A stretch of DNA of 32,000 bases, from NCBI RefSeq assembly GCF_000015225.1, contig NC_008698.1, positions 420,001-452,000 of the forward strand, in the 5' to 3' direction. The notes beneath the pieces are model-generated. The model was given only the letters and a program-made list of their open reading frames with translations, searched no databases and was not told the origin of the DNA. The translations under genes and the position numbers were made by a program. This DNA is from Thermofilum pendens Hrk 5. GTDB lineage: Archaea; Thermoproteota; Thermoprotei; Thermofilales; Thermofilaceae. This document shows positions 753-26,201 of the stretch, piece after piece. The first letter of the stretch is position 1. The number at the start of each line of letters is the position of its first letter.

Positions 753-760
753 GAGAAAAG

Positions 761-793
761 ACCACCAGGAAAGCGGCGTCCGGCCCCCTCCTC
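761..793 (-). repeat. GC-rich cassette boundary motif, copy 1 (ACCACCAGGAAAGCGGCGTCCGGCCCCCTCCTC)
   Basis: Starts 8 nt after the copy A stop. Same motif as at 4536, 6999, 18436, 18787, 20497, 23748 and 24374. Confidence 0.85.
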
Positions 794-4535: not shown

Positions 4536-4560
4536 GAGGAGGGGGCCGGGCGCCTTTCCC
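4536..4560 (+). repeat. GC-rich cassette boundary motif, copy 2 (solo, 3' part missing: GAGGAGGGGGCCGGGCGCCTTTCCC)
   Basis: Matches the first 25 nt of the motif and runs into GCGCGCG instead of TGGTGG. No family gene is attached. Confidence 0.7.
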
Positions 4561-4781: not shown

Positions 4782-4890
4782 GCCGGGGTAGCTCAGCTGG
4801 GAGAGCGCTCGGCTGAAGACCGAGTCGCGCACCCGGCATAGAGGTGCGCTGCGGGAGAGGTCCCGGGTTCAAATCCCGGCCCCGGCACCA
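4782..4890 (+). tRNA. tRNA-Phe(GAA) with a 33-nt non-canonical intron after the anticodon stem (4825-4857), CCA encoded
   Basis: Clean cloverleaf: GCCGGGG / GCTC-AGCTGGGA-GAGC / CTCGG-CTGAAGA-CCGAG / [insert] / AGGTC / CCGGG-TTCAAAT-CCCGG / CCCCGGC-A-CCA. The insert has a 7-bp hairpin GCGCACC..GGTGCGC. Confidence 0.9.
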
Positions 4891-5997: not shown

Positions 5998-6125
5998 TGG
6001 TGCGGGGGCCGGGATTCGAACCCGGGCAGGCCAACGCCAGCGGAGCTCCCATTGAATGTAATCCTGAGTATAGGCCCAGCCTCCAGGCCGGTCCGCCCCC
6101 TTTGACCTAGCTCGGGCACCCCCGC
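5998..6125 (-). tRNA. tRNA-Leu(CAG) candidate with two introns (about 6069-6091 and 6046-6062), CCA encoded
   Basis: The reverse complement reads GCGGGGG-TG-CCC-GAGCTAGGTCAAA-GGG-G-GCGGA ... TCCGC-TGGCGTTGGCCTGC-CCGGG-TTCGAAT-CCCGG-CCCCCGC-A-CCA. This is a type II tRNA with a long variable arm and A73. The only loop-like anticodon context between the stem halves is CTCAGG, flanked by 23-nt and 17-nt inserts. Confidence 0.7.
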
Positions 6126-6998: not shown

Positions 6999-7030
6999 GG
7001 GGAGGGGGCCGGGCGCCGCTTCCCTGGTGG
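6999..7030 (+). repeat. GC-rich cassette boundary motif, copy 3 (GGGGAGGGGGCCGGGCGCCGCTTCCCTGGTGG)
   Basis: Lies 6 nt beyond the TAG (7037-7039) that ends the out-of-frame C-terminal tail of copy B. Confidence 0.85.
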
Positions 7031-7036
7031 TTTACC

Positions 7037-8475
7037 CTATTCCTGCCCTGTCCCCAGCTTTTCGAGGTGATTCACGAGCTCCCAGGCTTTAGGATAGCTT
7101 TCCGCTTTTGTCTTCGTGAAGGCTGTCAGCGTTGCGCGTAGCTCCGCGTCGTAGCGGGCGTGCTCCATTAGCGAGGCGTGTGTAACCTGGTAGTACTCCC
7201 TACCCCACCCATTCGAACCACCCGGACGTCCCAGCCTTGAGCGCGTGCCTCCTCCACCCAGCCCGAAGGCACAGCTTCGACTGCGATCCTCGCGTAAATG
7301 TTGTTGGTGCTGGATACATAGGCTAGGTGTAGCTGTGCCCCTGCTATCTCGGCGTAGAACGGGTTGTTTCTCTGCCCGTTTTTCCTACCCTTCTTCCGAG
7401 GTAATCCGAAGCCGACGAATAGGAAGTGTTTGATCTTAGCGCATTTCGTCACCAATGAGACGAACTTGGTGTACTCGCTAGCCCTCTCCACGGCAAGCCT
7501 AGCGTTGATTATGGCGCTCTCAGCTGGGAGGTAGAAAACCTCGCTGCCTATCCTGAAGTGGAGCATCCGAAGCCTTAGAAAGAATGCGAGGTAGCCGTCT
7601 CCCAGGAAGGTAGTGAAAAGAGACGCTGGGTCGCCGTTGAGCTCCTTGCACTCCTCGACCAACCTGCGGAACTCCACGCGCTTCGTAGCGCCAATGAGCG
7701 TGGAGGCCCAGCCCAGCTCCTCCTCGTAACCGTAGACACGCACCTGCCACTGAAAGCTCAGCCTGGTGCTACCGAGTATGCCCGCCGTAACGCCGAGCCT
7801 GGCATCGTCGCTTGGAAAGGTTGCGAGCGTCGCTGGCAACTGCCACGGTTGAGTGGTACCGAAACGTACGTCGCTGTAGCGCCCGTGAGGGGGTGTCACA
7901 TCCGTAAGGATCCACCCCTTCTGCAGGCTCCTGAGAACATCGCTCGGAGTATTCACTAGAACCTGGGGAAACTCCGATTCGACCCAGAAGCCCTCCAATG
8001 GGATGTGTACGGACCAGCCATGCGTAGGCTTCGAGACCCTCACGTGCCAGTTCTCTCTAGGTATGTATACATGCCAGACTTTACCCTTCTTCTCAGCTCT
8101 AAGACCGTCGGCGCCGGCGTCGACGATTGCTTGCAACCTTCCTTTGAGCTCCATTACCGCGCCTCCTTCGCGTGGCTTCTCGTCGTCGTTCAGCAAGAGA
8201 TACTTCCTCAAGTCATAGTCGATGAACCTGTAAAACCTCGGGTAAACGCTGTCCGGCACGACGCTGTAGCCGTTTACGAGGAACTTGGTGAAGTCCCAGT
8301 TAATCCCAGACACCGTATCGTAGAGGCCGCGGTAGTGTATCTCGCCCCTCTTCTTCTTACCCCTGGACCTCCTCTTATCCTCTGTTCTGGTGGCGTAGAG
8401 GCTTAAAGCCGCCCTCCTCCACGTCTCCTCCCTAACAGTCTTCTCGATTTCCTCATACCCCATCATATCAACCAT
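7037..8475 (-). pseudogene. Cassette family protein, copy B (divergent paralogue; frame disrupted near 7187-7206)
   Basis: ORF 7168-8475 (435 aa) shares blocks with copies C and D (KVWHVYIP, GWILTD, FQWQVRVYG, FLGDGY, YARIAVEAVPSGWVEEARAQGWDVRVVRMGG). The conserved tail (EYYQVTHASLMEHARYDAELRATLTAFTKTKAESYPKAWELVNHLEKLGTGQE*) continues in another frame down to 7037. Confidence 0.75.
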
Positions 8476-8536
8476 ATTTCACCCGTCCTTAAATGGTGGA
8501 GGGGGCGCCCCTGCGAAGGCGTGCTCGAGGGTTATC
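8476..8536. promoter_or_regulatory. Conserved divergent control region of cassette B (TATA-like CCTTAAATGG followed by GGTGGAGGGGGCGCCCC)
   Basis: CACCCGTCCTTAAATGGTGGAGGGGGCGCCC recurs almost unchanged at 16945-16995 (opposite orientation) and 21912-21950. Confidence 0.5.
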
Positions 8537-8746
8537 GTGCGAACCATCGGCGCGCTTTCGCGTCTTCTGGCTAGCACTCTTAGGCGTGACGGGCTCTACG
8601 AGGCGCGCCTAGTAGAGGCTTTGGACGCAATCGAAGAGTTTTTAACCTCCGTGAGAGGCGCGACCCCGCAAGTCGAGGAAGACGAAGAGCTGGAGCGCGA
8701 GCTTAAGGGGTGCGTCGAGGAGCTTAGGGAGCTCGGACTAGCGTAA
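8537..8746 (+). CDS. Small acidic helical cassette partner protein, copy B (GTG start)
   Basis: 69 aa and about 85% identical to the ORF at 16705-16932 (RTIGALSRLLASTLRRD.LYEARLVEALDAIEEFL..V....PQVEEDEEL.RELK..VEELR.LGLA). It lacks the ATG and first 7 codons present in copy C. Confidence 0.55.
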   Translation: MRTIGALSRLLASTLRRDGLYEARLVEALDAIEEFLTSVRGATPQVEEDEELERELKGCVEELRELGLA

Positions 8747-8795
8747 AAAATCTTTTTCCCGTTTTCCCTTTTTCCCTGGTTTGTAAACCAAGGGG
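8747..8795 (+). terminator. T-rich tract plus hairpin CCCTGGTTTGTAAACCAAGGGG downstream of the small ORF
   Basis: AAAAAATCTTTTTCCCGTTTTCCCTTTTTCCC comes immediately after the stop and is followed by an imperfect palindrome at 8774-8795. The homologous arrangement is at 16608-16704. Confidence 0.45.
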
Positions 8796-8918
8796 CTTTC
8801 CCGTGTTTCGCGCGCTAGTTTCCCCTACGTTCGCGCGCGCCGACGCGCCGCGTCCGTATGCGCGCGTTGCCGCCGCAAAGCTTAAAACACATGTATATGT
8901 GGGTCTTGAAGGGTGTAG

Positions 8919-15884: not shown

Positions 15885-16553
15885 TCATACGAATTCTACG
15901 TTCGCGTGCCTCTTCTTCATATCCTCTTCGCCTACTCCGAGAATGTTCATCAAGGCGTATATCACGCCGTCAAAGAACACCATGACCGTGTCCTCGAAGA
16001 GCGTGCCCAGAGGCGCTAGAGGCTCGTACATTCCCAGCACTTGTCTCGCGAAGTAGTCGGTCTCCGCGGCTACCTTCGTTCTCCCAGGAACCACCACGAT
16101 GTGATCGCTGATCTTTCCTAGGGGTGACTCTGCAAAAGAAGTTATCGCTACCACGACAGCTTTAGCCCTCTTAGCCGCCGAGGCTACAGAAAGGACCACC
16201 TGGGTGCTTCCCGAGCCGCTTACAGCTATTAGAACGTCACCTTCCGAGATAGACGGCGTTATGGTTTCGCCTACTACGTACACGTTGAAGCCGAGGTGCA
16301 TTAACCTCATGGCGAAAGCTTTCGCCACCAGTCCGCTCCTGCCAGCGCCGACGACAAGGATCTTACTCTTCGTGGCGAGCGCTGAAGTCAGGATCTTCAG
16401 GAACCTGTTAACGCTTTCTTTGTCCAGCTCGCCTGCCACCTTCTCTATATAGGAGGCAATACTAACCATTGCTTTCGATACGTCTTCCGACACAAGCACC
16501 AACCCGTTGCGCGAAAAAGGAAAAGAAAGAAAAATATATTTCTTTTCACTCAC
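15885..16553 (-). CDS. hxlB: 6-phospho-3-hexuloisomerase-like SIS-domain protein
   Basis: VVGAGRSGLVAKAFAMRLMHLGFNVYVVGETITPS...VSGSGST and the C-terminal KKRHANVE match the archaeal PHI family closely. The true start may be the internal ATG at about 16469. Confidence 0.75.
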   Translation of the reverse strand: MSEKKYIFLSFPFSRNGLVLVSEDVSKAMVSIASYIEKVAGELDKESVNRFLKILTSALATKSKILVVGAGRSGLVAKAFAMRLMHLGFNVYVVGETITPSISEGDVLIAVSGSGSTQVVLSVASAAKRAKAVVVAITSFAESPLGKISDHIVVVPGRTKVAAETDYFARQVLGMYEPLAPLGTLFEDTVMVFFDGVIYALMNILGVGEEDMKKRHANVEFV

Positions 16554-16607
16554 GCGAAGCTAGCGCGCGTCATTACCCTGAGCTTAAAACGCGGAAATAG
16601 GGAAAAG

Positions 16608-16631
16608 CTCCCTGGTTTGTAAACCTGGGAG
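16608..16631. repeat. Hairpin CTCCCTGGTTTGTAAACCTGGGAG (extra copy of the GGTTTGTAAACC element)
   Basis: CTCCC/GGGAG and GGTTT/AAACC arms. A second copy of the core sits in the opposite orientation at 16660-16676 (CTACAAACCAGGGGGG). Confidence 0.6.
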
Positions 16632-16659
16632 AAAGCTAAAACCGCGAACCCTCACACGT

Positions 16660-16704
16660 CTACAAACCAGGGGGGAAGGGAAAAACGGGAATAAAAAGAG
16701 TTTT
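16660..16704 (-). terminator. T-rich tract plus CCCTGGTTTGTAG element downstream of small ORF copy C
   Basis: The reverse complement reads TAAAAAACTCTTTTTATTCCCGTTTTTCCCTTCCCCCCTGGTTTGTAG, colinear with 8747-8790. Confidence 0.45.
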
Positions 16705-16932
16705 TTACGCGAGCCCTAGCCCTCTCAGCTCCTCGACGCCCTCCTCAAGCTCTCTCGCTAGCTCTTCGTCCTCCTCGACCTGCGGGGCGCTTCTCACGGA
16801 TGCGAGGAATTCCTCTATCGCGTCCAAAGCCTCTACTAGGCGCGCCTCGTAGAGCTCGTCGCGCCTAAGAGTGCTCGCCAGTAGCCGCGAAAGCGCGCCT
16901 ATCGTTCGCACGGTAACCCTCGGGTCACTCAT
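16705..16932 (-). CDS. Small acidic helical cassette partner protein, copy C (ATG start, 75 aa)
   Basis: MSDPRVTVRTIGALSRLLASTLRRDELYEARLVEALDAIEEFLASVRSAPQVEEDEELARELEEGVEELRGLGLA. Start set at ATG 16932, with GGTGGT upstream. The 140-aa ORF-track version extends antisense into the family gene. Confidence 0.6.
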   Translation of the reverse strand: MSDPRVTVRTIGALSRLLASTLRRDELYEARLVEALDAIEEFLASVRSAPQVEEDEELARELEEGVEELRGLGLA

Positions 16933-17002
16933 CAACCACCACTGACCCCTGATGCCGCGCCCTCGCAGGGCGCCCCCTCCACCATATAAGGACGGGTGAA
17001 AT
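16933..17002. promoter_or_regulatory. Conserved divergent control region of cassette C (TATA-like CCATATAAGG / CCTTATATGG)
   Basis: Colinear with 8476-8536, plus about 34 extra nt that include the small-ORF ATG. The TATA-like box is at 16983-16991. Confidence 0.5.
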
Positions 17003-18427
17003 ATGGTTGAGGAGTACATGAAGGGAGATGGAGCCGTGACGGGGGAGGGCGTCGAAGAGTTCGACGAGGGGTTCATTCGCGAGAAGCTTAAAGAGCTTCT
17101 GAGGAAAGCTATCTTCCACCGATTCAACTACAGTGGTCTCGAGGCTACGTGCACGCGCGTAATGTGGGAGTTGATTAACCTCAAGGCTGAGTACCAGCGC
17201 TACGGCGAGGTCTACGTAGAGCTTACCAACAAAGCGGAGGTAGGCGTCGAGAAGGCTTGCAGAATAGCGAAGAGAGTGTTTAGAGAAGCCTTGGAGCACT
17301 TCGAAGAGCTCAAGGTACGGAGGACTGGGAAGGCAACGTGGAAGGTTAAGATTCCGGGCGAGAAGTGTAGAATCTACGTGTATAGGAAGCCAGCCGGGCA
17401 CTGGGCTGTTGAGATTCGCTTGTATATCAGAGTCACCAAGTTCATTGTTCCCGACACTCTAAGGCTTCCACCGGAGCTACTAGTAGACGCACAGACGGGC
17501 TGGTTGTACGGAGATGCATCGTACATAGCGAGCCGCAAAGATGTCAGAATGGGCACCTCACAAGCATGGCAAGTAACCTCCTTCCCCGGTTTCTGGCCGG
17601 GGAAGGAGGTCGAAGTATACATCAGAAGTGTAGTAATCCACGAGACTCATGTCAGCGTCGTGTGGACTGTTAGAGTTAAGGGTGTCCGCAACGCTCCTAA
17701 GGAATGGAGGCTAAGGAAGGAAGAAAAGCAGAGTGTTATCCTGTCAGAGATTAAGGCAGCGAACGAAGGAGAAATAGACATTTTCAGGGCTGTTCGAATT
17801 GCAACATACTACGCCGCAGACGGAAAGTATCCAGGGCCAAACACGGCTAAACGTTTGCTGGAATTCGGGGTTGGCAACGAGCCGTACTGGATTAGAGTCG
17901 AGGGTGCGGTGAGGATTGCGAAGCTTTTACACGAGGAGGTACCACAGCTATTAGCATTCATGTGCAGTGCTGGTTGCAAGAAGGCACGGTATCTTGCCCG
18001 CCTCGCGCTCGTTGAGCCGAAACGCAACCTCTCGCCGCGCTACTTAGAGGTCGCCGGCGTACGGATGAACCTGCAACTTGTAGGTACTAAGAACTACCGT
18101 ACTCTTATAGCAAGAGTTTTCATCACAAATAATAATGAGGAGTTACTCAGGGGTTTTCCTGAGCGGGCAAGGGAAGAGGGTCTCATAGTTAAAAAGATGA
18201 AGATAGACAAGAAGTACTACGGCTACTACGCTGGCTTGCGCGAGTTGATGAGCTATGCCGATAAACACTTAGAGGCGTATGACATATTGATCGACTTTGT
18301 CAAGGGGGAGCTCGAAGAAATGCCTCTAGACCACCCCGCCCGCCAAAGCGTCGAAAGGCTTCTTGAACGCCTGAAAAAAGCTAGAGAACGCGCACTCAGA
18401 AAGCACGCTGGGGGCGAAAACAACTAA
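17003..18427 (+). CDS. Cassette family protein, copy C (only apparently intact full-length copy; twin LAGLIDADG-like motifs)
   Basis: 474-aa uninterrupted ORF. Motifs QTGWLYGDASY (aa 164-174) and IATYYAADGKY (aa 266-276) are each followed by beta-rich sequence. About 60-65% identical to copy D over the first ~330 aa. An alternative start is ATG 17018. Confidence 0.8.
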   Translation: MVEEYMKGDGAVTGEGVEEFDEGFIREKLKELLRKAIFHRFNYSGLEATCTRVMWELINLKAEYQRYGEVYVELTNKAEVGVEKACRIAKRVFREALEHFEELKVRRTGKATWKVKIPGEKCRIYVYRKPAGHWAVEIRLYIRVTKFIVPDTLRLPPELLVDAQTGWLYGDASYIASRKDVRMGTSQAWQVTSFPGFWPGKEVEVYIRSVVIHETHVSVVWTVRVKGVRNAPKEWRLRKEEKQSVILSEIKAANEGEIDIFRAVRIATYYAADGKYPGPNTAKRLLEFGVGNEPYWIRVEGAVRIAKLLHEEVPQLLAFMCSAGCKKARYLARLALVEPKRNLSPRYLEVAGVRMNLQLVGTKNYRTLIARVFITNNNEELLRGFPERAREEGLIVKKMKIDKKYYGYYAGLRELMSYADKHLEAYDILIDFVKGELEEMPLDHPARQSVERLLERLKKARERALRKHAGGENN

Positions 18428-18435
18428 AGCGTAAG

Positions 18436-18467
18436 ACCACCAGGGAAAGGCGCCCAGCCCCCTCCTC
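18436..18467 (-). repeat. GC-rich cassette boundary motif, copy 4 (ACCACCAGGGAAAGGCGCCCAGCCCCCTCCTC)
   Basis: Starts 8 nt after the copy C stop codon. Confidence 0.85.
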
Positions 18468-18643
18468 TTTACTCTGCGACCACAGTTAAAGTTAACGCAT
18501 TCTTTTCTCTCGAGAAAGAGACTGTTTCCCACGATCTTTCCACTTCCTGGTTCTCGGCACGACTATCCCGAGGTGTTAATTAAGCGCCCATACCTCTCCC
18601 AAGTCTCTTACCTATGCGTCTACGCCGTCAAAAGCTGGACGTA

Positions 18644-18741
18644 TGGCGGGCCGGCCGGGATTCGAACCCGGGACCTACGGGTTAAGAGCCTCGACCCAGA
18701 GTTGCTTAGACCGCCGCTCTACCTAGCTGAGCTACCGGCCC
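18644..18741 (-). tRNA. tRNA-Lys(CUU) with a ~21-nt non-canonical intron inside the 5' anticodon stem (about 18690-18710), CCA encoded
   Basis: The reverse complement reads GGGCCGG-TA-GCTC-AGCTAGGTA-GAGC-G-GCGG[TCTAAGCAACTCTGGGTCGAG]G-CTCTTAA-CCCGT-AGGTC-CCGGG-TTCGAAT-CCCGG-CCGGCCC-G-CCA. Confidence 0.85.
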
Positions 18742-18786
18742 CATGTGTCGCGTTCTGCATAACCCCTCCTTTTTAATAAACTTTGC

Positions 18787-18852
18787 GGAGGAGAGAGCCG
18801 GGCGCCTTTCCCTGGCGGCGCGCACAAGGAGGGGGCGTTCCCTTGAAGCGGG
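18787..18852 (+). repeat. Apparent collapsed cassette: boundary motif copy 5 (GGAGGAGAGAGCCGGGCGCCTTTCCCTGGCGG) followed 10 nt later by a control-region-like GGAGGGGGCGTTCCCTTGAAGCGG
   Basis: 18787-18818 matches the boundary motif. 18829-18852 resembles GGAGGGGGCGCCCCTGCGAAGGCG from the cassette control region. No family ORF lies between them. Confidence 0.5.
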
Positions 18853-18947
18853 TAAAAGCTATCAGCTTGCACGTAGCGACGCGTTGCAAAGATAGTTTAA
18901 AACTGATCTGCGACGGCGTTACTCTCTACCTCCTATACAACGCGTGT

Positions 18948-19634
18948 TCATAGATGCGGTGTCGTGACTGTTATCGACTTTGCTCCCATCTCCTCTAAGA
19001 GCAGAGGGTCTAGGGACTGAAGAATCTCTTTGAACTCCTTCAGGCCTAGTATGAGCACACCTTCCTCCACTAGGGGACCTACGTCGTAGAGGTTGACTAT
19101 CAACGGGTAGAGCTTAGCTTGTTTACCTAGCCGTATTCCTATGTCTGCTCCCGACTTCATTTTGTCAGCCAGCGCTAAGCACCGTTCAAGATGCGCTTTC
19201 GCGGCTTTTTTCAGAGAAGACGGCGGGGCTCTTCGCCACCTCTTACAGTCAACAACTAATACGAGGTTGTCGCTCGCAGCTATAAGGTCTACCTCGAATC
19301 TTCTTCCTAAGTTTTTAAAGCGGAGATTCCGCTTGGTCCTAAGCCCGAAGCTTTCCGCTAGGTAGCAGCAGAGTTCCTCAAAGCTACTCCACCCGGAGCT
19401 TAACGCCAAGGATACAACGTCGTAGCCGTGTAGCCAAGCCTTAACGAGAACCCCCGGTAGAGACTCTTCGATGTAGCCGTTGACTACGGGTATTTCTAGG
19501 CTTTCTAGGACCAGCTGGACGAACTCCTGTGGAAGACCAGTTTCAGACACTATCTCGGTGATGCTGGCTACCTTACCCCGGGAAAGAAGTTCTGCGGCTT
19601 TCTTGAGGACTAACTCTACCTTAAAGCTTATCAA
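18948..19634 (-). CDS. Hypothetical protein with N-terminal wHTH-like region and PD-(D/E)xK nuclease-like core
   Basis: FEVDLIAASDNLVLVVDCKRW fits a D...(D/E)xK restriction-endonuclease-fold motif. The N-terminal ~60 aa is helical (ITEIVSETGLPQEFVQLVLESL). Confidence 0.35.
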   Translation of the reverse strand: MISFKVELVLKKAAELLSRGKVASITEIVSETGLPQEFVQLVLESLEIPVVNGYIEESLPGVLVKAWLHGYDVVSLALSSGWSSFEELCCYLAESFGLRTKRNLRFKNLGRRFEVDLIAASDNLVLVVDCKRWRRAPPSSLKKAAKAHLERCLALADKMKSGADIGIRLGKQAKLYPLIVNLYDVGPLVEEGVLILGLKEFKEILQSLDPLLLEEMGAKSITVTTPHL

Positions 19635-19653
19635 ACTAGACCCTGCTGGAATC

Positions 19654-20079
19654 CTACACTATTATGGAGGCCATCGCGGAGAGCTTTGGCCATCTCTCGG
19701 CGGCTTCCTTGGCTAGAGGCCCTCGAATCTCGGTACCTTTGGGCTCTCCCTCGGGCGTTATTATCACAACGGCGTTATCCTCGAACGCAATCCAGCTCCC
19801 GTCAGGTCTCCGGTAGGGTCTTCTCTGCCTGATCACTATTGCGCGCATAACCTGCTTTCTAAGCTCCGGTTTGCCCGCCCTAATGGAAACTATAACAATA
19901 TCGCCTACCGCCGCCCCAGGTATGCGCCGCCACACGGCTTTGTAGTGCGGGACTCCTATTACTTTTGCCAGCGTAGCACCAGAGTTATCGGCAACCTTTA
20001 CTAGGCTCTCCATGAATACTCCTGGTGTAAGGCCTAGCCTATAGGAAACACCAACTGTTTTCGGACCTCTCTTAGCCAC
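19654..20079 (-). CDS. rpl14: 50S ribosomal protein L14 (uL14)
   Basis: VADNSGA...V.....[42 protein letters not shown]. Confidence 0.92.
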
Positions 20080-20084
20080 TCAGA

Positions 20085-20420
20085 TCACCCGCCAACCTTT
20101 CCTATAACTACGAACGAGACAGACTTTGCCAACGGGCGTGTCTCCGCGACGATGACCTCGTCGCCGGGCTTCACCGGTATGCAGGGCGGCACACGTACAT
20201 GCTTCTTTTTACGCCTTACTTCATACCTTTTATACTTCTCGTTGTAGTAAAGATACTCGTGTACAGCCACCGCCACGTTGTGCATTTTAACCTTCTCTAC
20301 GCGTAGCCTCAGCACTTGTCCTCTCACGGGCAACTCCCCATGCCACGGGCACAGAGGGTCGTTACACTTCATTTGCGGAGGGCTTACTCCGGGAATACCC
20401 ACACCCTTCAACTTTGCCAT
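20085..20420 (-). CDS. rps17: 30S ribosomal protein S17 (uS17)
   Basis: CNDPLCPWHGELPVRGQVL...KMHNVAVAVHEYLYYNEKYKRYEVRRKKKHVRVPPC..VKPGDEVIVAETRPLAKSVSFVV. Confidence 0.92.
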   Translation of the reverse strand: MAKLKGVGIPGVSPPQMKCNDPLCPWHGELPVRGQVLRLRVEKVKMHNVAVAVHEYLYYNEKYKRYEVRRKKKHVRVPPCIPVKPGDEVIVAETRPLAKSVSFVVIGKVGG

Positions 20421-20468
20421 TGCTGTGCACCCTCAACGAGAGACGTGCGAGTGCGAGATACGTAACAG

Positions 20469-20483
20469 GTTATTATAAAGCTT
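20469..20483 (-). promoter_or_regulatory. TATA-like box AAGCTTTATAATAAC upstream of rps17
   Basis: AT-rich box about 55 nt upstream of the rps17 ATG, with GAGGGTG about 9 nt before the ATG. It lies between rps17 and boundary motif copy 6. Confidence 0.35.
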
Positions 20484-20496
20484 ACGGATACTCAAT

Positions 20497-20528
20497 GAGG
20501 AGGGGGCCGGGGCGCCTTTCTCTGGTGG
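20497..20528 (+). repeat. GC-rich cassette boundary motif, copy 6 (GAGGAGGGGGCCGGGGCGCCTTTCTCTGGTGG)
   Basis: Ends 9 nt before the copy D stop codon (20538-20540, minus strand). Confidence 0.85.
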
Positions 20529-20537
20529 TTTTACCCC

Positions 20538-21922
20538 TTATTCTAGTGCCCCAGCTGGGCGTATCTTCAGTAGTTCTTCGACTAGCTTCTTCGCGGCTGG
20601 CTTAACCTCCGCCTTAGCCTTAGCGAACGCATAGAGAGCCTCCCAAAGCTCCGGGTCCTCGCTCGCGTGCTCGAAAAGCGAGTCCTGGGGGATCTCGTAG
20701 TAAGGCGTCTCGCCTGACCGGACAACATTCACAGTCCACCCCTCCTCTACTGCTCTCTCGTACCAGCCTTGAGGCGCGTTATCAACGGGTATGCGAGCGT
20801 AGATGTAGGCGTACTCGTCGCCGACAGTAACCAAGGGGAGGTTCAGCATCGCGCCGGCAACCGGTGCATAAAGGCCGAGACGTTGGTAGGCGCGTGGCGC
20901 GCGAGAAAGGGCTAAGCGCGTCAGGAATTCCGCCTTTTTACACCCTGAGACACGCAGGAAGGCTAGTAGTTGCGGAGTCCTTTCGAGAAGCAACCGCGCT
21001 AACCTGAGGGACTGCTCCGTCCTAACCCGGTACGACTTACTGCCTACTGCGAATTCCAGCACACGTTTAGCCGTGTTTGACCCTGGATACTTACCATCAG
21101 AGGCGTATAGTAGTGCAAGCTTTACCGCCCTGACGATGTCGACTTTTCCTTCGTTCGCCTCCTCGATCTCCGCCAAGATAATACCCTGTTTCTCCTTTTT
21201 GGGGAGACTCCACCATCGAGGCGCGTTGCGGACACCCTTAACTCTGACAGCCCACATTATGCTGACGTGAGTCTCGTGAACCGTTACGCTTTCGATGTAG
21301 ACTGTCACCTCCTTCTCCGGCCAGAAACCGGGGAAGGAGACGGCCTGCCACACCTGCGTAGTAGTCATCTCGACTTCTTTCTTGTCTGCGCGGTATGTTG
21401 CGTCGCCGTATATCCAACCCGTTTGAGCTGCTACCAGCAATTCGGAAAGCTCCAAGACATCGGGAAGTCTCAGCTTAGCGACCTTGAGGTATAAACGGAT
21501 TTCGACGCTCCAGTACCCGCCTGGCTTTAAGTGCATGTATATCCTCCACTTTGTGCCTGGAATCTTAACCTTCCACGCCGTCCTGCCCGTCCTTCGTATC
21601 TTCAGTTCTTCGAAGTGTTCTAAAGCCTCCTTCGCCACCCTCCGCGCGATCCTGAAAGCCTTCTCAACGCGAACCTCTTCTCTGCTGACGAGCTCTACGT
21701 AGACCTCGCCGTATTGCGCATAATTGGCCTTTATGTTGCCAGCTCCCGCGTGACTTCTTCATGCGTAGCCTCGAACCCCCTGTAACCGTCGCGCGGAAAC
21801 AACGCCTTCCTGAGAAGCTCCCTGATCTTCTCGCGAATGAACTCCTCGTCGAACTCGGCCCCTGCCTCTCCCGCCACAGCCCTTTCATTCCCCGTCATTA
21901 CTACTTCATTCATACCTACCAC
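20538..21922 (-). pseudogene. Cassette family protein, copy D (frame disrupted near 21723-21748)
   Basis: ORF 21731-21922 (..EFDEEFIREKIRELLRKALF..FEATHEEVTRELAT*) aligns to the N-terminus of copy C. The continuation NIKANYAQYGEVYVELVSREEVRVEKAFRIARRVAKEALEHFEELK... is open in a different frame and merges with ORF 20538-21638. Confidence 0.8.
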
Positions 21923-22030
21923 CCGTCCTTAAACGGTGGACGGGGCGCCCTACGCGTACGCGCTATCAGGGGTCAGCGTGGCGGGAAGCATGAGTAGTGA
22001 GCGCTTCGCGCGCGATGCGCGCGGCACACG

Positions 22031-22315
22031 CTACCACAGCATGACACGTCTCTTAAGCCTCTCCTCGGGTCTACCAACGAGGAAGGCTCCATCGACGAGT
22101 AGTTCTTTGCCGTCGGGTAGCTTGATCCTGAGCACTACTTGAGCCTTAAAGATTCTCTTCTTGGGCCCTCCGGGTACTCCTATTACTATCGTCTTGTAGG
22201 TCTCATCCAGTATGAGCCCGCAGATCCCTACCTGACTGGGGTTTTTCGACTTAACGACGCAGGCTTCAAGACCTATAAGCTCGTGCCGGAGTATGTTCTT
22301 CGGAGTTATCTTCAT
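22031..22315 (-). CDS. rnp1: RNase P protein component 1 (Rpp29/Pop4)
   Basis: HELIGLEACVVKSKNPSQVGICGLILDETYKTIVI....KKRIFK......I.LPDGKELLVDGAFLVGRPEERLK. Confidence 0.88.
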   Translation of the reverse strand: MKITPKNILRHELIGLEACVVKSKNPSQVGICGLILDETYKTIVIGVPGGPKKRIFKAQVVLRIKLPDGKELLVDGAFLVGRPEERLKRRVMLW

Positions 22316-22362
22316 AATCGGTCAAGAATTCTTTCCAATGCTTAAGCTTTCCCTTAGAACCA

Positions 22363-22617
22363 CTACTGCTGGGATGCGCTGCCCTGAACTGGAGGTTGCT
22401 CTGCCGAAGGGGCTTTTCTTCGGAGCTCGTTCTCAATTGTAAGGATCCTGGCTATCTCGCGTTTAATCTTGCGTATCGATGCCACGTTTTCGAGCGAGCC
22501 TCGATGAGCTTGCGCCTTAAGCCTGGCCAGCTCTCCCCGTAGTTCCTGCAGTCTTTTCTGTCGCTCCTCCCTGCTCATCTTCCTGAGCTCTTCAGCTTGT
22601 TTCGCCATACGCTTCAC
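22363..22617 (-). CDS. rpl29: 50S ribosomal protein L29 (uL29)
   Basis: ELRKMSREERQKRLQELRGELARLKAQAHRGSLENVASIRKIKREIARILT. The start may be ATG 22608. Confidence 0.88.
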   Translation of the reverse strand: MKRMAKQAEELRKMSREERQKRLQELRGELARLKAQAHRGSLENVASIRKIKREIARILTIENELRRKAPSAEQPPVQGSASQQ

Positions 22618-23222
22618 CCTACCTGTGTCACGCCCTTTATGAGTATTGTGTCAGGCATTTTCGCAGGCTTCATTATCCTAACCTTTACGCCGTACATCCC
22701 CAGCTTGAGTAGTACATGCACAATTGCCTCGTCCACTAGTTCTTCCCCGGGTTCTCCGGACTTGGGGACGTAACCTCTAGTGAATTTCTCGGTGCGATGC
22801 CTCTGGCTTGTTAGCTTACCGCTTATCACTATTTCTGCTCCTCGGGCGCCGGCAGCCATTATCCTGTTTAGAGCAACTAGGGCGGCTCTGCGGAACCTTA
22901 CACCTCTCACCAGGGCTCTCGCCACTCTGTAAGCCATTATTTTCGCGTTCAGATCCTGGTTCGGCACCTCGACAACGTCTATCTGAGGGTTCTCGATCCC
23001 GAACTCCCTCTCTAGGACTTCAGCTATAGCCTTTATGTTAGCTCCCTTCCTGCCTATGACGAGGCCCGGTACTCCAGCGTACACTATCACCTTCGTTCCT
23101 ATCGGTGTCTTGAAGAACTGTGCATGCACGTAGTTTGCACGTACAAGTTGTCGTTGCAGGTACTCGTTGAGCATCATGTACTGGAGACCCTGGCTGATTA
23201 CCTTCCTCGCCGTCGTCGACAT
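22614..23222 (-). CDS. rps3: 30S ribosomal protein S3 (uS3, KH domain)
   Basis: VIVYAGVPGLVIGRKGANIKAIAEVLEREFG is the KH motif. 202 aa, in the operon position between L22 and L29. Confidence 0.92.
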   Translation of the reverse strand: MSTTARKVISQGLQYMMLNEYLQRQLVRANYVHAQFFKTPIGTKVIVYAGVPGLVIGRKGANIKAIAEVLEREFGIENPQIDVVEVPNQDLNAKIMAYRVARALVRGVRFRRAALVALNRIMAAGARGAEIVISGKLTSQRHRTEKFTRGYVPKSGEPGEELVDEAIVHVLLKLGMYGVKVRIMKPAKMPDTILIKGVTQVG

Positions 23223-23230
23223 CCTCCCAC

Positions 23231-23686
23231 CTATTCTACCTCCCTAGCTATTATTTCAACGTGAACTAGCTGGTCGTAGTACGGCGTGGCCCTTCCAAAG
23301 GCTCTTGGGAGGTAATTCCTTATCTTCATCCCTTTATGCGCCGCGGCATGCACTATGCGGAGATTCTCCACGTTAAGTCCCTTAAACTCAGCGTTATTTT
23401 CCAGGTTGTCTAGAAGTTTTAACAAGTTCTTTGCAACCTTGACCGGGTACCTGCCTGGTCCCGGAACGTCGCTTCGATGCCCAACCTTTTTATTGTACCT
23501 CTTAAGGGGCACAGACCTTTTCATCTCGGCGATCTCGGTAAGTATTCTCCTAGCCTCCTCGATGCTCTTCCCCTTAATAAGCCTCAATGTTTCTACTGTG
23601 AGCTTATACGACATGCTAACATCCCGTAGAGAGGCTTTGGCTGTCCTCTCGGGCTCTAACTCCACTGAATACCGCCAAGTCGGCAT
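23231..23686 (-). CDS. rpl22: 50S ribosomal protein L22 (uL22)
   Basis: AKASLRDVSMSYKLTVETLRLIKGKSIEEARRIL.......VPLKRYNKKVGHR......GRYPVK.AK..LKLL.N.E.NAE. Confidence 0.9.
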   Translation of the reverse strand: MPTWRYSVELEPERTAKASLRDVSMSYKLTVETLRLIKGKSIEEARRILTEIAEMKRSVPLKRYNKKVGHRSDVPGPGRYPVKVAKNLLKLLDNLENNAEFKGLNVENLRIVHAAAHKGMKIRNYLPRAFGRATPYYDQLVHVEIIAREVE

Positions 23687-23714
23687 ACCCAGCTACCGAC
23701 TTGGCTCTCCAATT

Positions 23715-23728
23715 CCTAAATAAAAACC
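23715..23728 (-). promoter_or_regulatory. TATA-like box GGTTTTTATTTAGG upstream of rpl22
   Basis: About 30-40 nt upstream of the rpl22 ATG (23686), directly abutting the degenerate boundary motif at 23748. Confidence 0.35.
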
Positions 23729-23747
23729 TTTTTGATACTTCGCGCTC

Positions 23748-23785
23748 GAGGAAGAGGTCGGCGCCGCTCCCCTGTTTGCCTTACC
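23748..23785 (+). repeat. GC-rich cassette boundary motif, copy 7 (degenerate: GAGGAAGAGGTCGGCGCCGCTCCCCTGTTTGCCTTACC)
   Basis: Aligns with GAGGAGGGGGCCGGGGCGCCTTTCTCTGGTGGTTTTACC with several substitutions. It is followed by the relic gene tail. Confidence 0.6.
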
Positions 23786-23789
23786 CCTT

Positions 23790-24135
23790 TTATTCTTGCT
23801 TTGTCCCAGCTTGTTTAATTCTTAGCAGTTCTTCAACAAGCCTACGCGCAACGGGCTTAGCCTGCGCCTTTGCGAGGACGAAGCGGTATAGCGCCTCCCA
23901 GAGCGTCGCATCCTCCGCTGTGTGCTCGAAAAGAGAGTCCTGGGAACCTGGTAGTAAAGCGTACTGCCTGACCTGACAACCTTCACAGTCTACCCCTCCT
24001 CGACCGCCTTCTCGTACCAGCCTGAGGGCGCGCTATCAGCTGGTATCCTAGCGTAGATGTAGGCGTGGACTATATCCCATAAGCACGAAGGTTCAACAAC
24101 ACACCAACAACCGACGCATAGAAGCTAAGCCACCG
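23790..24135 (-). pseudogene. Cassette family protein, relic E (C-terminal ~115 codons; nonsense plus frameshift)
   Basis: The reverse complement reads HAYIYARIPADSAPSGWYEKAVEEG*TVKVVRSGSTLYYQVP. After a 1-nt frame slip it reads DSLFEHTAEDATLWEALYRFVLAKAQAKPVARRLVEELLRIKQAGTKQE*. TGG->TAG lies at 23990-23992 and the frame slip near 23939-23944. Confidence 0.75.
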
Positions 24136-24373
24136 GTAGGCCACCTTCTGCCCGGGTTCCTTACCCTCCTTACTCGGCCCGCCGTAGGCAACATATAAGA
24201 TGTAACTGACCTTGTCACACCTAGCGTCACGCGACACGAACCTCACGTATTCCCATGTACGCTCAACCGCGACGCGGGCGTTGAAAGCAGAGCCTTCTGG
24301 TTGAAAGATGCTCCATTACCGCGCTTCCTTCTCTCTCGCGCGAGCTGGGAAACCCAGACAGATAAAGCGGAAA

Positions 24374-24407
24374 ACCGCCAGGAAAAAGGCGCCCCGCCCC
24401 CCTCCTC
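24374..24407 (-). repeat. GC-rich cassette boundary motif, copy 8 (ACCGCCAGGAAAAAGGCGCCCCGCCCCCCTCCTC)
   Basis: Inverted relative to copy 7. The preceding ~45 nt (GAGCTGGGAAACCCAGACAGATAAAGCGGAAA) resembles the 3' end and stop context of a plus-strand family gene. Confidence 0.7.
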
Positions 24408-24460
24408 ATAGTAGCGCTAGGTTTATATTTAACAAGTAGAGGGGATGCTGGGGACGCTTC

Positions 24461-24736
24461 ATGGGGCGCCATACGCGCGTCGTTGGACCTGCAGGAAGGT
24501 TTGGAGCCAGGTATGGGGCTACACTTAGGAAGAAAGTAGCCGCGATTGAGAGGAAGATGAAAGCTCGCCATAAGTGTCCTAGGTGCCAGGCTGTCGGGAC
24601 TGTAAAAAGAGAGAGTATCGGCATATGGGTTTGCAGGAAGTGTGGCTACAAGTTTGCAGGAGGAGCGTGGCTACCGCGGACAGAGGCTGGTAGAACCTTC
24701 TCGCCTGAAGAGCTGAAGAGCATGGGTCTTGCGTAA
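24461..24736 (+). CDS. rpl37ae: 50S ribosomal protein L37Ae (eL43, zinc ribbon)
   Basis: VGPAGRFGARYGATLRKKVAAIE....ARHKCPRCQ...VKRESIGIWVCRKCGYKFAGGAW. Confidence 0.9.
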   Translation: MGRHTRVVGPAGRFGARYGATLRKKVAAIERKMKARHKCPRCQAVGTVKRESIGIWVCRKCGYKFAGGAWLPRTEAGRTFSPEELKSMGLA

Positions 24737-24788
24737 GCTAGTACAAAACTCGCCAAGCTCGTTGTGCGCAAACACGGCAACCATACGT

Positions 24789-25601
24789 TCAGAGGAGACC
24801 CTTCGCACGTGCTTGCCGCGCAAGTGCAAGCACTTCCTCTGGGTTTATTTCTCGTACCCTCCTGGAGCCCAATACGTTCGACTCCCTTACTAGATCCTCG
24901 GCCACTTCACGGTTTACCCCCAGCCCTATGCGCAGAGCAGTGGTAACGACTCTGTTTATGTACGGAAATATTCTCCTGCTAAACTCCTCGACAAGCCGTA
25001 CATCCTCGGCGCCGAGTCTTCGGAGTGGAACTAGTCTTACGAAGGAGGTGAAAACCTTCGGCGGTGGAAGGAACGCGTTGGGGGGAACGTCGAATAAACG
25101 CTCGATGCTGAAGCAAAGCTGGCTTATCACGCTGAGCCTTCCGTACTCTCTCGTGCCGGGCTTTGCGTACAACCTTTCAGCAACCTCTCTCTGTAAGCCA
25201 AGGTATGCTTTAAGGAGCCCCTCGTCGTAGCAAAGCTTCACTACGAGCTGGGAGGAGATATTGAACGGAGTGTTCGAGACTACGAGGTGACTCGAGCGCG
25301 ACAAGTCTATGCGTAGCGCATCGCCAACCATTATGTCTACGTTACCTATACCCCGCCTGTAGAGCTCTCTAGAAAGGAAGAGGGCCAGCGCTTCATCCTT
25401 TTCGCAACAGAAAACATATGCAGACCTTTCCGACAAGGGTAGAGTGAGGCTCCCCAACCCGCATCCAACTTCGTACACATCTTCGCCGTTTACAAAGGAC
25501 GCGATACGCGAAGCAACGGTGTCATCTACCAGGAAGTGTTGCCCCAATCTACGCTTATACCTTATGCTCCTGAGAGCCTCCCTCACGTACGCCGATAACA
25601 C
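24789..25601 (-). CDS. ksgA: 16S rRNA (adenine1518/1519-N6)-dimethyltransferase KsgA/Dim1
   Basis: LGQHFLVDDTVASRI.......DVYEVGCGLGSLTLPL and the downstream VSNTPFNISS motif. Confidence 0.88.
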   Translation of the reverse strand: MLSAYVREALRSIRYKRRLGQHFLVDDTVASRIASFVNGEDVYEVGCGLGSLTLPLSERSAYVFCCEKDEALALFLSRELYRRGIGNVDIMVGDALRIDLSRSSHLVVSNTPFNISSQLVVKLCYDEGLLKAYLGLQREVAERLYAKPGTREYGRLSVISQLCFSIERLFDVPPNAFLPPPKVFTSFVRLVPLRRLGAEDVRLVEEFSRRIFPYINRVVTTALRIGLGVNREVAEDLVRESNVLGSRRVREINPEEVLALARQARAKGLL

Positions 25602-25669
25602 TGGGAGCCTCGGGTATCCTTAGTGAGAAATACAACTATTTAAAGAGCACGCACTTGCAGAGGTTTGCT

Positions 25670-26059
25670 TTAAGATCCCGACTTTATCTTCAGATTGTTT
25701 ACTTCCTTGATTATTTCATCGACGAGGCTAGCCGCCTCTCCTGGTTCAAGTATCGCGGCAGCAGCCGCTGCGACGTTTATACCGGCGGCTTTTCCAAGGC
25801 GCTCTTTGCTCGGAACGTAGACGTACGGAACCTTCTTTTCCTCGCAGAGCAACGGCAAGTGTGCCACCACCTCTGGAGGATCTACATCAGTGGCTATGAG
25901 AACTAGCTTTGCAAGTCCACGCTCGACAGCTTTAGTGGTCTCGTTTGTTCCCTTCTTTATCTTACCGCCTTTCTCCCTTGCCAGGCTGAGAGCTTGGTAG
26001 GCTTTTTCCGCCAGTTCCGGTGGGACATCAAACCTAACGTAAAACGGTTTCTTGGACAT
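25670..26059 (-). CDS. rpl7ae: 50S ribosomal protein L7Ae (K-turn binding; C/D and H/ACA RNP component)
   Basis: [61 protein letters not shown]. Confidence 0.93.
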
Positions 26060-26201
26060 TTTTCGCTCACCTCTCGCTCATCATGCATTCGCACTGCTAC
26101 TGCATATTTAAACTTTTTTGTTTTTCGAGAGCTCGACACGCGTCTCGAAACGGGCAACGCGCGAAGCAAAGCTTCTTAACGGTTTTCGATGAAGTCGGGG
26201 T

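What the first reader, a model, noticed from the sequence alone, without database searches (positions are those of the whole stretch)
20497..20528. A ~30-nt GC-rich boundary motif occurs eight times, always at a fixed distance from the family gene stop
The consensus, read antisense to the adjacent gene, is GAGGAGGGGGCCGGGCGCCTTTCCCTGGTGG. Copies lie at 761-793, 4536-4560, 6999-7030, 18436-18467, 18787-18818, 20497-20528, 23748-23785 (degenerate) and 24374-24407. All are intergenic, irregularly spaced and in both orientations. In the gene-sense strand it can fold as AGGG-AAA-GGC-GCCCG-GCC-CCCU, a bulged hairpin followed by CCCCCUCCUC. The core GGAGGGGGCG(N)CC also recurs in the control region at the 5' side of the family gene (8499-8515, 16958-16975). 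It could be a 3' processing or terminator structure, a protein recognition site (target or half-site of the cassette nuclease), or a recombination site. Solo copies show that it persists after the gene is lost.
Basis: seen in the sequence. Interest (0 to 1): 0.72.

Follow-up and report, generated by a model that had tools for sequence, protein, structure and literature searches.

The report
End motif of an archaeal selfish-gene cassette
A roughly 31-base GC-rich sequence marks the exact 3' end of a many-copy gene cassette in the archaeon Thermofilum pendens whose large gene looks like a LAGLIDADG homing endonuclease, and it survives as a footprint where the gene has decayed, so it is probably the DNA site through which these cassettes are copied or recognised rather than an RNA hairpin.

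Summary
All eight copies are at the stated coordinates, and a profile search finds no others in the window. None is expected by chance.

The window is Thermofilum pendens chromosome. The motif is the last conserved block of a repeated cassette. The cassette has a divergent 69-aa gene, a shared TATA box, a roughly 470-aa family gene, a stop codon, an 8-nt spacer and then the motif. Homology between copies ends within 3-6 nt of CCTCCTC.

The motif stays 87-94% identical between cassettes whose proteins share only 25% identity. A shortened version (GGGCGCCCCCTCC) lies directly upstream of the family gene's own TATA box. Six of the eight copies lie 6-40 nt upstream of a host promoter (tRNA or ribosomal-protein gene).

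Two close relatives have neither cassette nor motif at the orthologous sites, so the cassettes are insertions.

The family protein matches no Pfam, PHROG or NCBIfam model. Its predicted fold and two invariant helix-end Asp motifs indicate a double LAGLIDADG endonuclease.

The proposed RNA hairpin or terminator is not supported.

Best reading (about 0.45): it is a terminal DNA recognition or recombination site of a homing-endonuclease-like cassette.

The T. pendens genome could not be reached, so the genome-wide association is untested.

The parts
761..793 (+). 3' motif of cassette D (gene 3-752 is cut by the window edge). It starts 8 nt after the stop. A tRNA promoter lies 40 nt downstream and the tRNA gene is at 870-997.
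4536..4560 (-). Solo motif H. It is truncated (lacks ACCACCAG) and has no family-gene remnant next to it.
6999..7030 (-). 3' motif of cassette A. The TATA box of the trmI gene (6195-6965) lies 7 nt downstream.
7043..8475 (-). Family gene A. It is frameshifted near its 3' end, is 73% identical to paralog P0010, and is only 25% identical to gene B.
8495..8511 (-). 5' core of cassette A (sense GGGGCGCCCCCTCCACC), directly upstream of the shared TATA box at 8487-8496.
   Evidence: (I10)
8537..8746 (+). Divergent 69-aa companion gene of cassette A. It is followed by a T-rich tract and the palindrome CCCTGGTTTGTAAACCAAGGG. Cassette homology ends at about 8815.
16705..16911 (-). 69-aa companion gene of cassette B (87% identical to that of A). 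Cassette homology starts at about 16590.
16968..16983 (+). 5' core of cassette B (GGGCGCCCCCTCCACC), directly upstream of the TATA box ATATAAGG.
17003..18427 (+). Family gene B, intact at 474 aa. It is a predicted double LAGLIDADG fold with D171 and D273.
18436..18467 (+). 3' motif of cassette B, 8 nt after the stop. The 3' end of tRNA-Leu lies 176 nt downstream, convergent.
18787..18818 (-). Solo motif G. It abuts the BRE/TATA of tRNA-Leu (18644-18741). It forms the 3' end of a ~165-nt stretch that relative L183 lacks.
18825..18845 (-). Shortened motif-like unit resembling the 5' core (CAAGGGAACGCCCCCTCCTTG), a few nt upstream of solo G.
20497..20528 (-). 3' motif of cassette C (the finding's own coordinates). 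The TATA box of the S17 gene (20085-20420) lies 17 nt downstream.
20538..21922 (-). Family gene C, frameshifted (ORFs 20538-21638 and 21731-21922). It is inserted between Rpp29 and S17.
21935..21950 (-). 5' core of cassette C (sense GGGCGCCCCGTCCACC). Cassette homology ends at 21976 and there is no companion gene.
   Evidence: (D9, I8)
23748..23785 (-). Degenerate motif E. The L22 promoter lies 21 nt downstream.
23796..24312 (-). Decayed C-terminal remnant of a family gene (E).
24374..24407 (+). Motif F. Only the stop codon and 8-nt spacer of a former gene remain upstream. The L37ae promoter lies 14 nt downstream.

Best explanation
The motif is the conserved 3'-terminal DNA element of a multi-copy selfish gene cassette specific to Thermofilum pendens. 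The large cassette gene encodes a LAGLIDADG-type, homing-endonuclease-like protein.

Shown:
- The motif, with the stop codon and an 8-nt spacer, is the last ~45 nt shared by all cassette copies.
- It is kept far better than the coding sequence next to it.
- A compact version of it sits at the other side of the gene, just upstream of the gene's TATA box and in the same orientation.
- It remains where the gene has decayed or been deleted.
- The cassettes are insertions relative to close relatives.

Inferred:
- The motif and the 5' core are the DNA sites bound, and possibly cut, by the cassette protein.
- They would also provide the short homology by which cassettes are copied or converted between loci by break repair.
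- Solo copies would be footprints or landing sites.
- Surviving insertions lie just upstream of host promoters, where they do no harm.
For: The eight copies are real and far beyond chance, and the list is complete for the window.

Homology between cassettes ends 3-6 nt past the motif (I1).

Cassettes A and B have unalignable coding DNA and 25% protein identity. Their motifs are nevertheless 87-94% identical to other copies, and their promoter cores are 98% identical over 43 nt (I10 and I14, 15, 45). The motif follows both kinds of C-terminal module.

The GGCGCC...CCCCCTCC core flanks the gene on both sides in direct orientation. Nine of ten CCCCCTCC octamers in the window are cassette-linked. 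The same promoter core is found in another T. pendens cassette and in an environmental contig.

Evidence on the protein:
- The AlphaFold model has pLDDT 84 and shows two alpha-beta-beta-alpha-beta-beta-alpha domains.
- Foldseek top hits are almost all LAGLIDADG enzymes. The trimmed domain hits the bI3 maturase at probability 0.99.
- G166/D171 and D273/G274 are invariant in 24 members down to 17% identity. In distant members the motifs read GWRASDE and LLTWWLGDG.

Relatives L182 and L183 have Rpp29 and S17 adjacent, with a 56-68 nt spacer and no cassette or motif. Solo G lies in a ~165-nt T. pendens-specific stretch.

The copies are at different stages of decay: intact B; D, whose stretch inside the window is an open frame 100% identical to the 458-aa paralog P0006; frameshifted A and C; remnant E; and footprints F, G and H. 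This fits the life cycle of a selfish endonuclease gene.

A second clade of the family in metagenomes carries its own conserved 3' flank, followed by unrelated DNA.
Against: No binding or cleavage data exist.

The motif is not split by the cassette, as a classical homing site would be. The cassette-bearing loci keep the full motif.

The orthologous empty sites in two relatives contain no motif, so there is no evidence that it pre-exists as a target.

The motif is the same next to proteins only 25% identical, which is odd if each protein recognises its own flank.

The structural match to LAGLIDADG enzymes has low TM-scores (0.13-0.35) and E-values of about 0.003-0.01. No sequence method confirms it.

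Only eight copies from one 32-kb window were available. The rest of the genome could not be examined.
Confidence: 0.45

Rival explanations
1. The motif is a promoter-upstream operator or insulator. It would be bound by a cassette-encoded regulator (the 69-aa protein, or a WhiA-like, non-cutting LAGLIDADG protein) or by a host factor. It would control the family gene's own promoter through the 5' core. At the 3' end it would shield or drive the host promoter that follows.
For: The 5' core sits immediately upstream of the family gene's TATA box, and between the TATA box and the expected start of the divergent small gene. Six of eight 3' copies are followed within 6-40 nt by the TATA box of a co-oriented host gene: tRNA, trmI, tRNA-Leu, S17, L22 and L37ae. 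The palindromic GGCGCC core (GGGGCGCCCC in cassette A) suits a dimeric binder. The motif is retained in four gene-less sites next to essential promoters. WhiA, a LAGLIDADG-derived transcription factor, is among the fold hits. The small protein is far better conserved (77-100% identity, 15 paralogs) than the large one.
Against: The distance to the host TATA box varies from 6 to 40 nt. Copies B and H have no co-oriented promoter downstream. The host promoters exist without any motif in relatives. Both catalytic Asp residues are invariant across the family, which argues for a working nuclease rather than a mere binder.
Confidence: 0.22
2. The motif acts at the RNA level or as a transcription stop. 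It would be a 3' UTR hairpin or processing site of the family mRNA, or, read on the other strand, a hairpin plus T-run that stops transcription entering the cassette.
For: The position is fixed at 8 nt after the stop codon. The antisense strand can form an 8-12 bp G:U-containing hairpin followed by GGTGGTTTT. One-sided changes in copies C and G keep antisense pairing (G:C to G:U, G:U to A:U).
Against: Folding energies match shuffled controls on both strands, and some copies are worse than shuffles. Only copy F reaches z -1.9. No compensatory changes are seen. The sense strand has no U-tract, which archaeal intrinsic termination needs (general knowledge). Of the consensus terminator scan's seven sites, only one touches a motif: a 5-bp stem on the minus strand at 24379-24366 that overlaps the first 6 nt of copy F and lies mostly in the spacer before it. 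No Rfam match. The motif is conserved in solo copies that follow no gene.
Confidence: 0.13
3. The motif has no function of its own. It is simply the end of a duplicated segment, kept uniform by gene conversion between cassettes. It survives in remnants only because deletions that also removed the adjacent essential promoter would be lethal.
For: Paralogs are mosaic: the two C-terminal module types are shuffled among N-terminal types. This shows recombination between copies. Only four gene-less copies exist, too few to show selection for retention.
Against: Conversion would have to keep a 31-nt tract near-identical while leaving the adjacent coding DNA unalignable (A versus B). The related core at the promoter and the shortened unit beside G are hard to explain by hitch-hiking. 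A different clade also keeps a conserved 3' flank.
Confidence: 0.15

Closest known systems
Free-standing LAGLIDADG homing endonuclease genes and their homing sites (e.g. archaeal I-DmoI and I-Tsp061I; yeast HO as a domesticated example)
   Same: The predicted protein has two LAGLIDADG-type domains with both helix-end Asp residues kept. The gene behaves as an insertion absent from relatives. Copies range from intact to decayed. A ~30-bp specific DNA sequence sits at the gene's boundary, a length typical of LAGLIDADG targets.
   Different: There are many dispersed copies in one genome instead of one allelic site. They are not in an intron or intein. The motif is intact beside the gene rather than split by it. 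There is a companion 69-aa gene. No sequence model of LAGLIDADG families matches. Cleavage is untested.
paREP2 / PaREP2b repeated genes of Pyrobaculum (called putative transposons in PMC3558965)
   Same: A multi-copy, lineage-specific gene family of Thermoproteota associated with genome rearrangement regions. One T. pendens paralog is labelled PaREP2b in UniRef.
   Different: Pfam PaRep2b does not match the T. pendens proteins. Only one distant homolog gives a sub-threshold hit. No terminal motif has been described for paREP2 in the papers I could search.
Integron attC sites, and solo footprints of mobile elements such as solo LTRs
   Same: A short conserved element lies at the 3' end of each gene cassette, and solo copies are left when the gene is gone.
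   Different: There is no integrase, no array and no attI. The cassettes carry their own promoter. The imperfect dyad is short and shows no structural conservation.
IS200/IS605 right ends / TnpB omega-RNA (my first guess)
   Same: A conserved element immediately follows the stop codon of a repeated large gene.
   Different: The protein has no OrfB/RuvC or zinc-ribbon match and folds as LAGLIDADG. There is no TnpA and no RNA structure signal.

Membership tests
LAGLIDADG homing endonuclease (the cassette protein) | Two alpha-beta-beta-alpha-beta-beta-alpha domains packed through the LAGLIDADG helices | tested here: met
   The AF2 model (pLDDT 84) shows this topology twice: H157-168/E173-226/H239-254 and H260-273/E286-373/H385-391. 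Foldseek top hits are almost all LAGLIDADG enzymes. The trimmed model hits the bI3 maturase at probability 0.99 and TM 0.35. TM-scores are low.
LAGLIDADG homing endonuclease (the cassette protein) | A conserved acidic residue at the end of each LAGLIDADG helix | tested here: met
   G166/D171 and D273/G274 are invariant in 24 members down to 17% identity. Distant members read GWRASDE and LLTWWLGDG.
LAGLIDADG homing endonuclease (the cassette protein) | Match to curated sequence models or to solved LAGLIDADG sequences | tested here: not met
   No Pfam, NCBIfam or PHROG hit. No PDB sequence hit. hhalign against I-DmoI aligns motif 2 only, without significance.
Homing site of a homing endonuclease (the motif) | The site is present uninterrupted in alleles lacking the gene, and is cut by the enzyme | tested here: inconclusive
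   The empty Rpp29|S17 and Mrr-like|tRNA-Leu sites in relatives L182 and L183 contain no motif, but these are other species. Solo G carries a 5'-core-like unit plus the full motif side by side. Cleavage is not testable here.
Pfam PaRep2b (PF07775) | Score above the Pfam gathering threshold | tested here: not met
   None of the T. pendens paralogs hits it. One distant homolog scores 16.4 bits against a cut-off of 20.4.
Intrinsic terminator / structured 3' RNA element | A stable conserved hairpin with covariation, plus a U-tract | tested here: not met
   z-scores run from -0.3 to +2.4 for 10 of 12 folds. Only copy F reaches -1.9. No compensatory changes are seen in eight copies. The sense strand has no U-tract. 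Of the terminator scan's seven sites, only a 5-bp minus-strand stem at 24379-24366 overlaps a motif, by 6 nt at the start of copy F. No Rfam hit.
REP / MITE-like autonomous short repeat | Many copies spread through the genome independent of any gene, often with terminal inverted repeats or target duplications | not testable with these tools
In the window, 6 of 8 copies adjoin a family gene or its remnant, and no inverted repeats or duplications were seen.
IS200/IS605 right end / TnpB guide-RNA scaffold | An adjacent TnpB (RuvC-like plus zinc ribbon) gene and a structured RNA overlapping its 3' end | tested here: not met
   There are no OrfB_IS605 or zinc-ribbon hits, the fold is LAGLIDADG, and there is no structure signal.

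The most novel reading that the evidence does not exclude
The 31-nt motif and its compact 5' version would be the two arms of a landing site for an uncharacterised, very abundant clade of free-standing LAGLIDADG endonuclease genes in Thermoproteota. The enzyme would cut motif-bearing sites. Break repair from another cassette would then copy the gene (with its companion 69-aa gene) into a new promoter-upstream position. In this way a homing endonuclease would spread within one genome like a transposon, splitting even the ribosomal-protein gene cluster. Each lineage would have its own terminal element.
Probability: 0.25. Interest if true: 0.8.

Novelty: new variant of a known kind. Interest (0 to 1): 0.6.

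Why it matters
Homing endonuclease genes are normally single-site parasites of introns, inteins or one allelic locus. Here the family behaves differently. It has at least 13 large-gene and at least 15 small-gene copies in one archaeal genome, and more than 500 relatives in hot-spring metagenomes. It has a conserved terminal DNA element and a conserved promoter core. Its insertions sit right in front of tRNA and ribosomal-protein promoters. This would be an unusual way for such genes to multiply.

It would also give function to a large set of 'hypothetical' and paREP-like proteins.

The motif is a concrete, testable candidate for the enzyme's DNA site. A thermostable nuclease with a ~30-bp specificity would also be of practical interest.

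Tried and rejected
1. IS200/IS605-TnpB right end or omega-RNA was my first idea. I rejected it because there are no Pfam hits and the fold is LAGLIDADG.

2. I tried to reach the rest of the T. pendens genome and failed:
- The look-up of encoding contigs failed for P0001-P0004.
- The search for related loci on genome contigs confirmed nothing.
The one Thermoproteota hit lies inside an aminotransferase gene.
- A strict motif scan of metagenomes gave 0 hits.
- The viral scan gave 55 single hits, about what my own rough estimate of chance gives (no control was computed).
- The plasmid search gave nothing.

3. I first thought the tRNA-Leu segment between the inverted motif copies B and G had been inverted in T. 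pendens, because it is opposite in relative L182. A second relative, L183, has the T. pendens orientation, so I dropped the idea.

4. Solo H is not a remnant of the small gene (tblastn).

5. Distant homologs in Pyrobaculum and Vulcanisaeta MAGs have no such motif after the stop.

6. Similarity between the small-gene end (TTTCCCTGGTTTG...GGGGCTTTCCC) and the antisense motif is only weakly above chance, so I left it as a note.

7. ARAGORN misses most intron-bearing archaeal tRNAs in the metagenomic loci.

Full report
**Source and observation**

The family protein encoded at 17003-18427 is 100% identical to a hypothetical protein of Thermofilum pendens. All close paralogs are from that species. 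The window is therefore T. pendens chromosome.

In the sense of the adjacent gene the motif reads ACCACCAGGGAAAGGCGCCCGGCCCCCTCCTC.
- A degenerate pattern hits six copies, with none in 100 shuffles.
- An nhmmer profile of the eight copies scores them at 24-37 bits and finds no further copy in the window.
- No Rfam family matches.

**Anatomy of the repeated unit**

BLAST of the cassettes against the window, ORF lists and tblastn with twelve paralogs give this map:
- D, 3-794 (+), cut by the window edge.
- A, about 8815-6999 (-).
- B, about 16590-18470 (+).
- C, 21976-20494 (-).
- Remnant E, 24312-23748 (-).
- F, 24362-24409 (+). Only the stop codon, the spacer and the motif remain.
- Solo G, 18787-18818 (-).
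- Solo H, 4536-4560 (-), truncated.

A full unit has these parts in order:
- a T-rich tract and palindrome;
- a 69-aa gene;
- a shared TATA box, from which the family gene is transcribed divergently;
- the ~470-aa family gene and its stop codon;
- an 8-nt semi-conserved spacer (RGNGTAAR);
- the motif.

The stop-to-motif spacer is 8 nt in D, B, C and F. It is about 5 nt in A and 10 nt in E. Similarity between copies stops 3-6 nt beyond CCTCCTC (I1). The motif is therefore the true 3' terminus of the repeated unit.

**Conservation pattern**

Genes A and B share 25% protein identity and their coding DNA does not align. Their motifs are still 87-94% identical to other copies. Their promoter cores are 98% identical over 43 nt (I10 and I14). 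The family has two different C-terminal modules, and the motif follows both.

A compact relative of the motif, CAGGGCGCCCCCTCC, lies immediately upstream of the family gene's TATA box in A, B and C. It has the same orientation as the 3' motif. The same core is present in another T. pendens cassette (Logan contig L184) and in an environmental contig (L185). CCCCCTCC occurs ten times in the window, and nine of those are in these positions. One of them belongs to a shortened unit (18825-18845) a few nt upstream of solo G.

**Surroundings**

Six of the eight copies are followed, 6-40 nt beyond CCTCCTC, by the TATA box of a co-oriented host gene:
- D: a tRNA gene.
- A: trmI.
- G: tRNA-Leu.
- C: ribosomal protein S17.
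- E: ribosomal protein L22.
- F: ribosomal protein L37ae.

These assignments rest. The sequence beyond the motif is unrelated between copies.

**Cassettes are insertions**

I recovered two relatives through the S3 protein. L182 has 87% S3 identity and L183 has 81%. Both carry L22-S3-L29-Rpp29-S17-L14-Mrr-like as one uninterrupted block. Their Rpp29|S17 spacer is 56-68 nt, with a promoter but no motif. In T. pendens, cassette C sits in exactly that spacer.

In L183 the Mrr-like gene is followed after ~38 nt by tRNA-Leu. In T. pendens about 165 extra nt lie there, ending in solo G directly against the tRNA-Leu BRE/TATA. The motif profile finds nothing in either relative. The motif therefore came with the cassettes and is not an ancestral host sequence at these sites.

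I first read the opposite tRNA-Leu orientation in L182 as an inversion between motif copies B and G. L183 shows that the T. pendens orientation is the shared one, so I withdraw that idea.

**The cassette proteins**

The family gene has no Pfam, NCBIfam or PHROG match and no sequence match to the PDB. One paralog carries the UniRef label PaREP2b, but the Pfam PaRep2b model is not matched.

A profile search of 1.84 billion representative proteins finds 44 relatives. They come from T. pendens, from Pyrobaculum, Vulcanisaeta and Infirmifilum MAGs, and from metagenomes.

The AlphaFold model (pLDDT 84) contains two alpha-beta-beta-alpha-beta-beta-alpha domains. In Foldseek against the PDB, nearly all top hits are LAGLIDADG enzymes: I-OnuI, I-DmoI, I-Tsp061I, the bI3 maturase and WhiA. 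E-values are about 0.003 and TM-scores are low. The trimmed two-domain model hits the bI3 maturase first, at probability 0.99 and TM 0.35.

In an alignment of 24 members down to 17% identity, the invariant residues include G166/D171 and D273/G274 at the ends of the two interface helices. Distant members read GWRASDE and LLTWWLGDG, which are recognisable LAGLIDADG motifs. I put about 0.8 on a LAGLIDADG fold with both catalytic Asp residues retained. I found no paper linking paREP proteins and LAGLIDADG.

The 69-aa companion protein has 15 T. pendens paralogs at 77-100% identity. It is far better conserved than the large gene.

Inside the window only B is intact over its whole length. D is cut by the window edge, but its part inside the window is an open frame 100% identical to P0006. 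A and C are frameshifted, E is a stump, and F, G and H are footprints. This range of decay is what is expected of a selfish endonuclease gene (general knowledge of the homing cycle).

**RNA-structure reading**

I folded six copies on each strand. For 10 of the 12 sequences, minimum free energies do not differ from dinucleotide shuffles (z from -0.3 to +2.4). Copy F folds somewhat better, at z -1.9 on both strands.

The substitutions in copies C, G and E are one-sided. The antisense strand forms a longer G:U-containing stem followed by GGTGGTTTT, but it too is no better than chance.

The sense strand has no U-tract. The consensus terminator scan reports seven sites in 16000-25000, against 8.6 expected from shuffles. 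Only one touches a motif: a 5-bp minus-strand stem at 24379-24366, which overlaps the first 6 nt of copy F. I therefore rank the RNA or terminator reading low.

**Wider family**

A metagenome search with a profile of the distant clade gave more than 600 pattern matches, of which 540 were confirmed. The family is therefore large.

Distant homologs do not carry the T. pendens motif. However, one clade of 17 loci (proteins 57-93% identical) has its own conserved ~60-nt 3' flank. It starts 9-96 nt after the stop and is followed by unrelated sequence. A lineage-specific conserved 3' element may thus be a trait of the family.

In 7 of 40 loci scanned with Rfam, a tRNA gene lies just downstream on the opposite strand.

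**Interpretation**

Shown: the motif is the conserved 3' terminus of an inserted, multi-copy cassette. It has a related core at the promoter side and persists after gene decay.

Inferred: because the cassette protein looks like a site-specific DNA endonuclease with a ~20-30 bp footprint, the motif and the 5' core are most likely its DNA site and the short homology used when cassettes are copied or converted between loci. Solo copies would then be footprints or landing sites. The side-by-side 5'-core-like unit and full motif at G would fit an empty landing site.

Points against:
- The motif is not split by the gene.
- No motif exists at the empty sites of relatives.
- The same motif flanks very different proteins.

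Rival readings, with my confidence in each, are an operator or insulator for the flanking promoters (0.22), an RNA or terminator element (0.13), and a functionless hitch-hiker kept by conversion (0.15).

**Limits**

The key test, genome-wide association of motif and family genes, is still open. Everything about the 3' motif rests on eight copies in one window.

Noticed in passing
window 20494-21976, between 20085-20420 (S17) and 22031-22315 (Rpp29): A cassette has been inserted inside the conserved archaeal ribosomal-protein cluster. The cluster is also broken upstream of L22 by remnants E and F lying head to head. Two relatives have the cluster intact.
   Followed up: yes
window 17003-18427 and paralogs; alignment A4: The 'hypothetical / PaREP2b-like' family appears to be an undescribed clade of double-motif LAGLIDADG proteins (GWRASDE ... 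LLTWWLGDG). It has no Pfam, NCBIfam or PHROG model. A search of metagenomes confirmed more than 500 relatives.
   Followed up: partly
window 8537-8746 (+) and 16705-16911 (-); L184 149-355; L185 188-421: The 69-aa acidic helical companion gene is transcribed divergently from a shared, nearly palindromic TATA box. It has 15 paralogs at 77-100% identity, so it is much more conserved than the large gene. Its function is unknown.
   Followed up: partly
window 8771-8792 and 16610-16680: The small-gene end carries a T-rich tract and the palindrome CCCTGGTTTGTAAACCAAGGG, followed by GGGGCTTTCCC. This weakly resembles the antisense motif. Enrichment is only modest.
   Followed up: partly
L189, L198, L201, L204, L214, L223, L239-L241, L244, L246, L248, L249, L254, L257, L258, L265 (downstream of the family gene): A different clade of the family shares a conserved ~60-nt 3' flank (GCCGATATGTGGAACYGCAGAACCRACGACAACCAAYATGCGGAATCA) at a variable distance from the stop.
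   Followed up: partly
L222, L225, L245, L250, L259, L263, L264 (and L187): Distant family genes often lie with their 3' end facing the 3' end of a tRNA gene on the opposite strand. In the window, cassette B faces tRNA-Leu in the same way.
   Followed up: partly
window 7043-8475 and 20538-21922: Family genes A and C are interrupted by frameshifts. Logan contigs from independent sequencing runs (SRR9438659 and SRR9438660) are 100% identical over 21130-26130, which covers the N-terminal part of gene C, and they carry the same split gene calls. At least in C, the frameshift is therefore unlikely to be a sequencing error.
   Followed up: partly
L182 6671-6789 versus window 18644-18741 and L183 8679-8813: tRNA-Leu is inverted relative to the Mrr-like gene in relative L182, but not in T. 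pendens or L183.
   Followed up: yes
window 870-997, 4782-4887, 6004-6100, 18644-18741: There are four tRNA genes, most with introns. ARAGORN finds only one and Rfam finds three. The one at 6004-6100 is only a weak tRNA-like hit. Three motif copies lie next to tRNA genes.
   Followed up: no
window 4561-4570, 18819-18826, 22005-22025, 8820-8850: Short alternating GC runs (GCGCGCG) are frequent in intergenic DNA here, including directly beside solo copies G and H.
   Followed up: no
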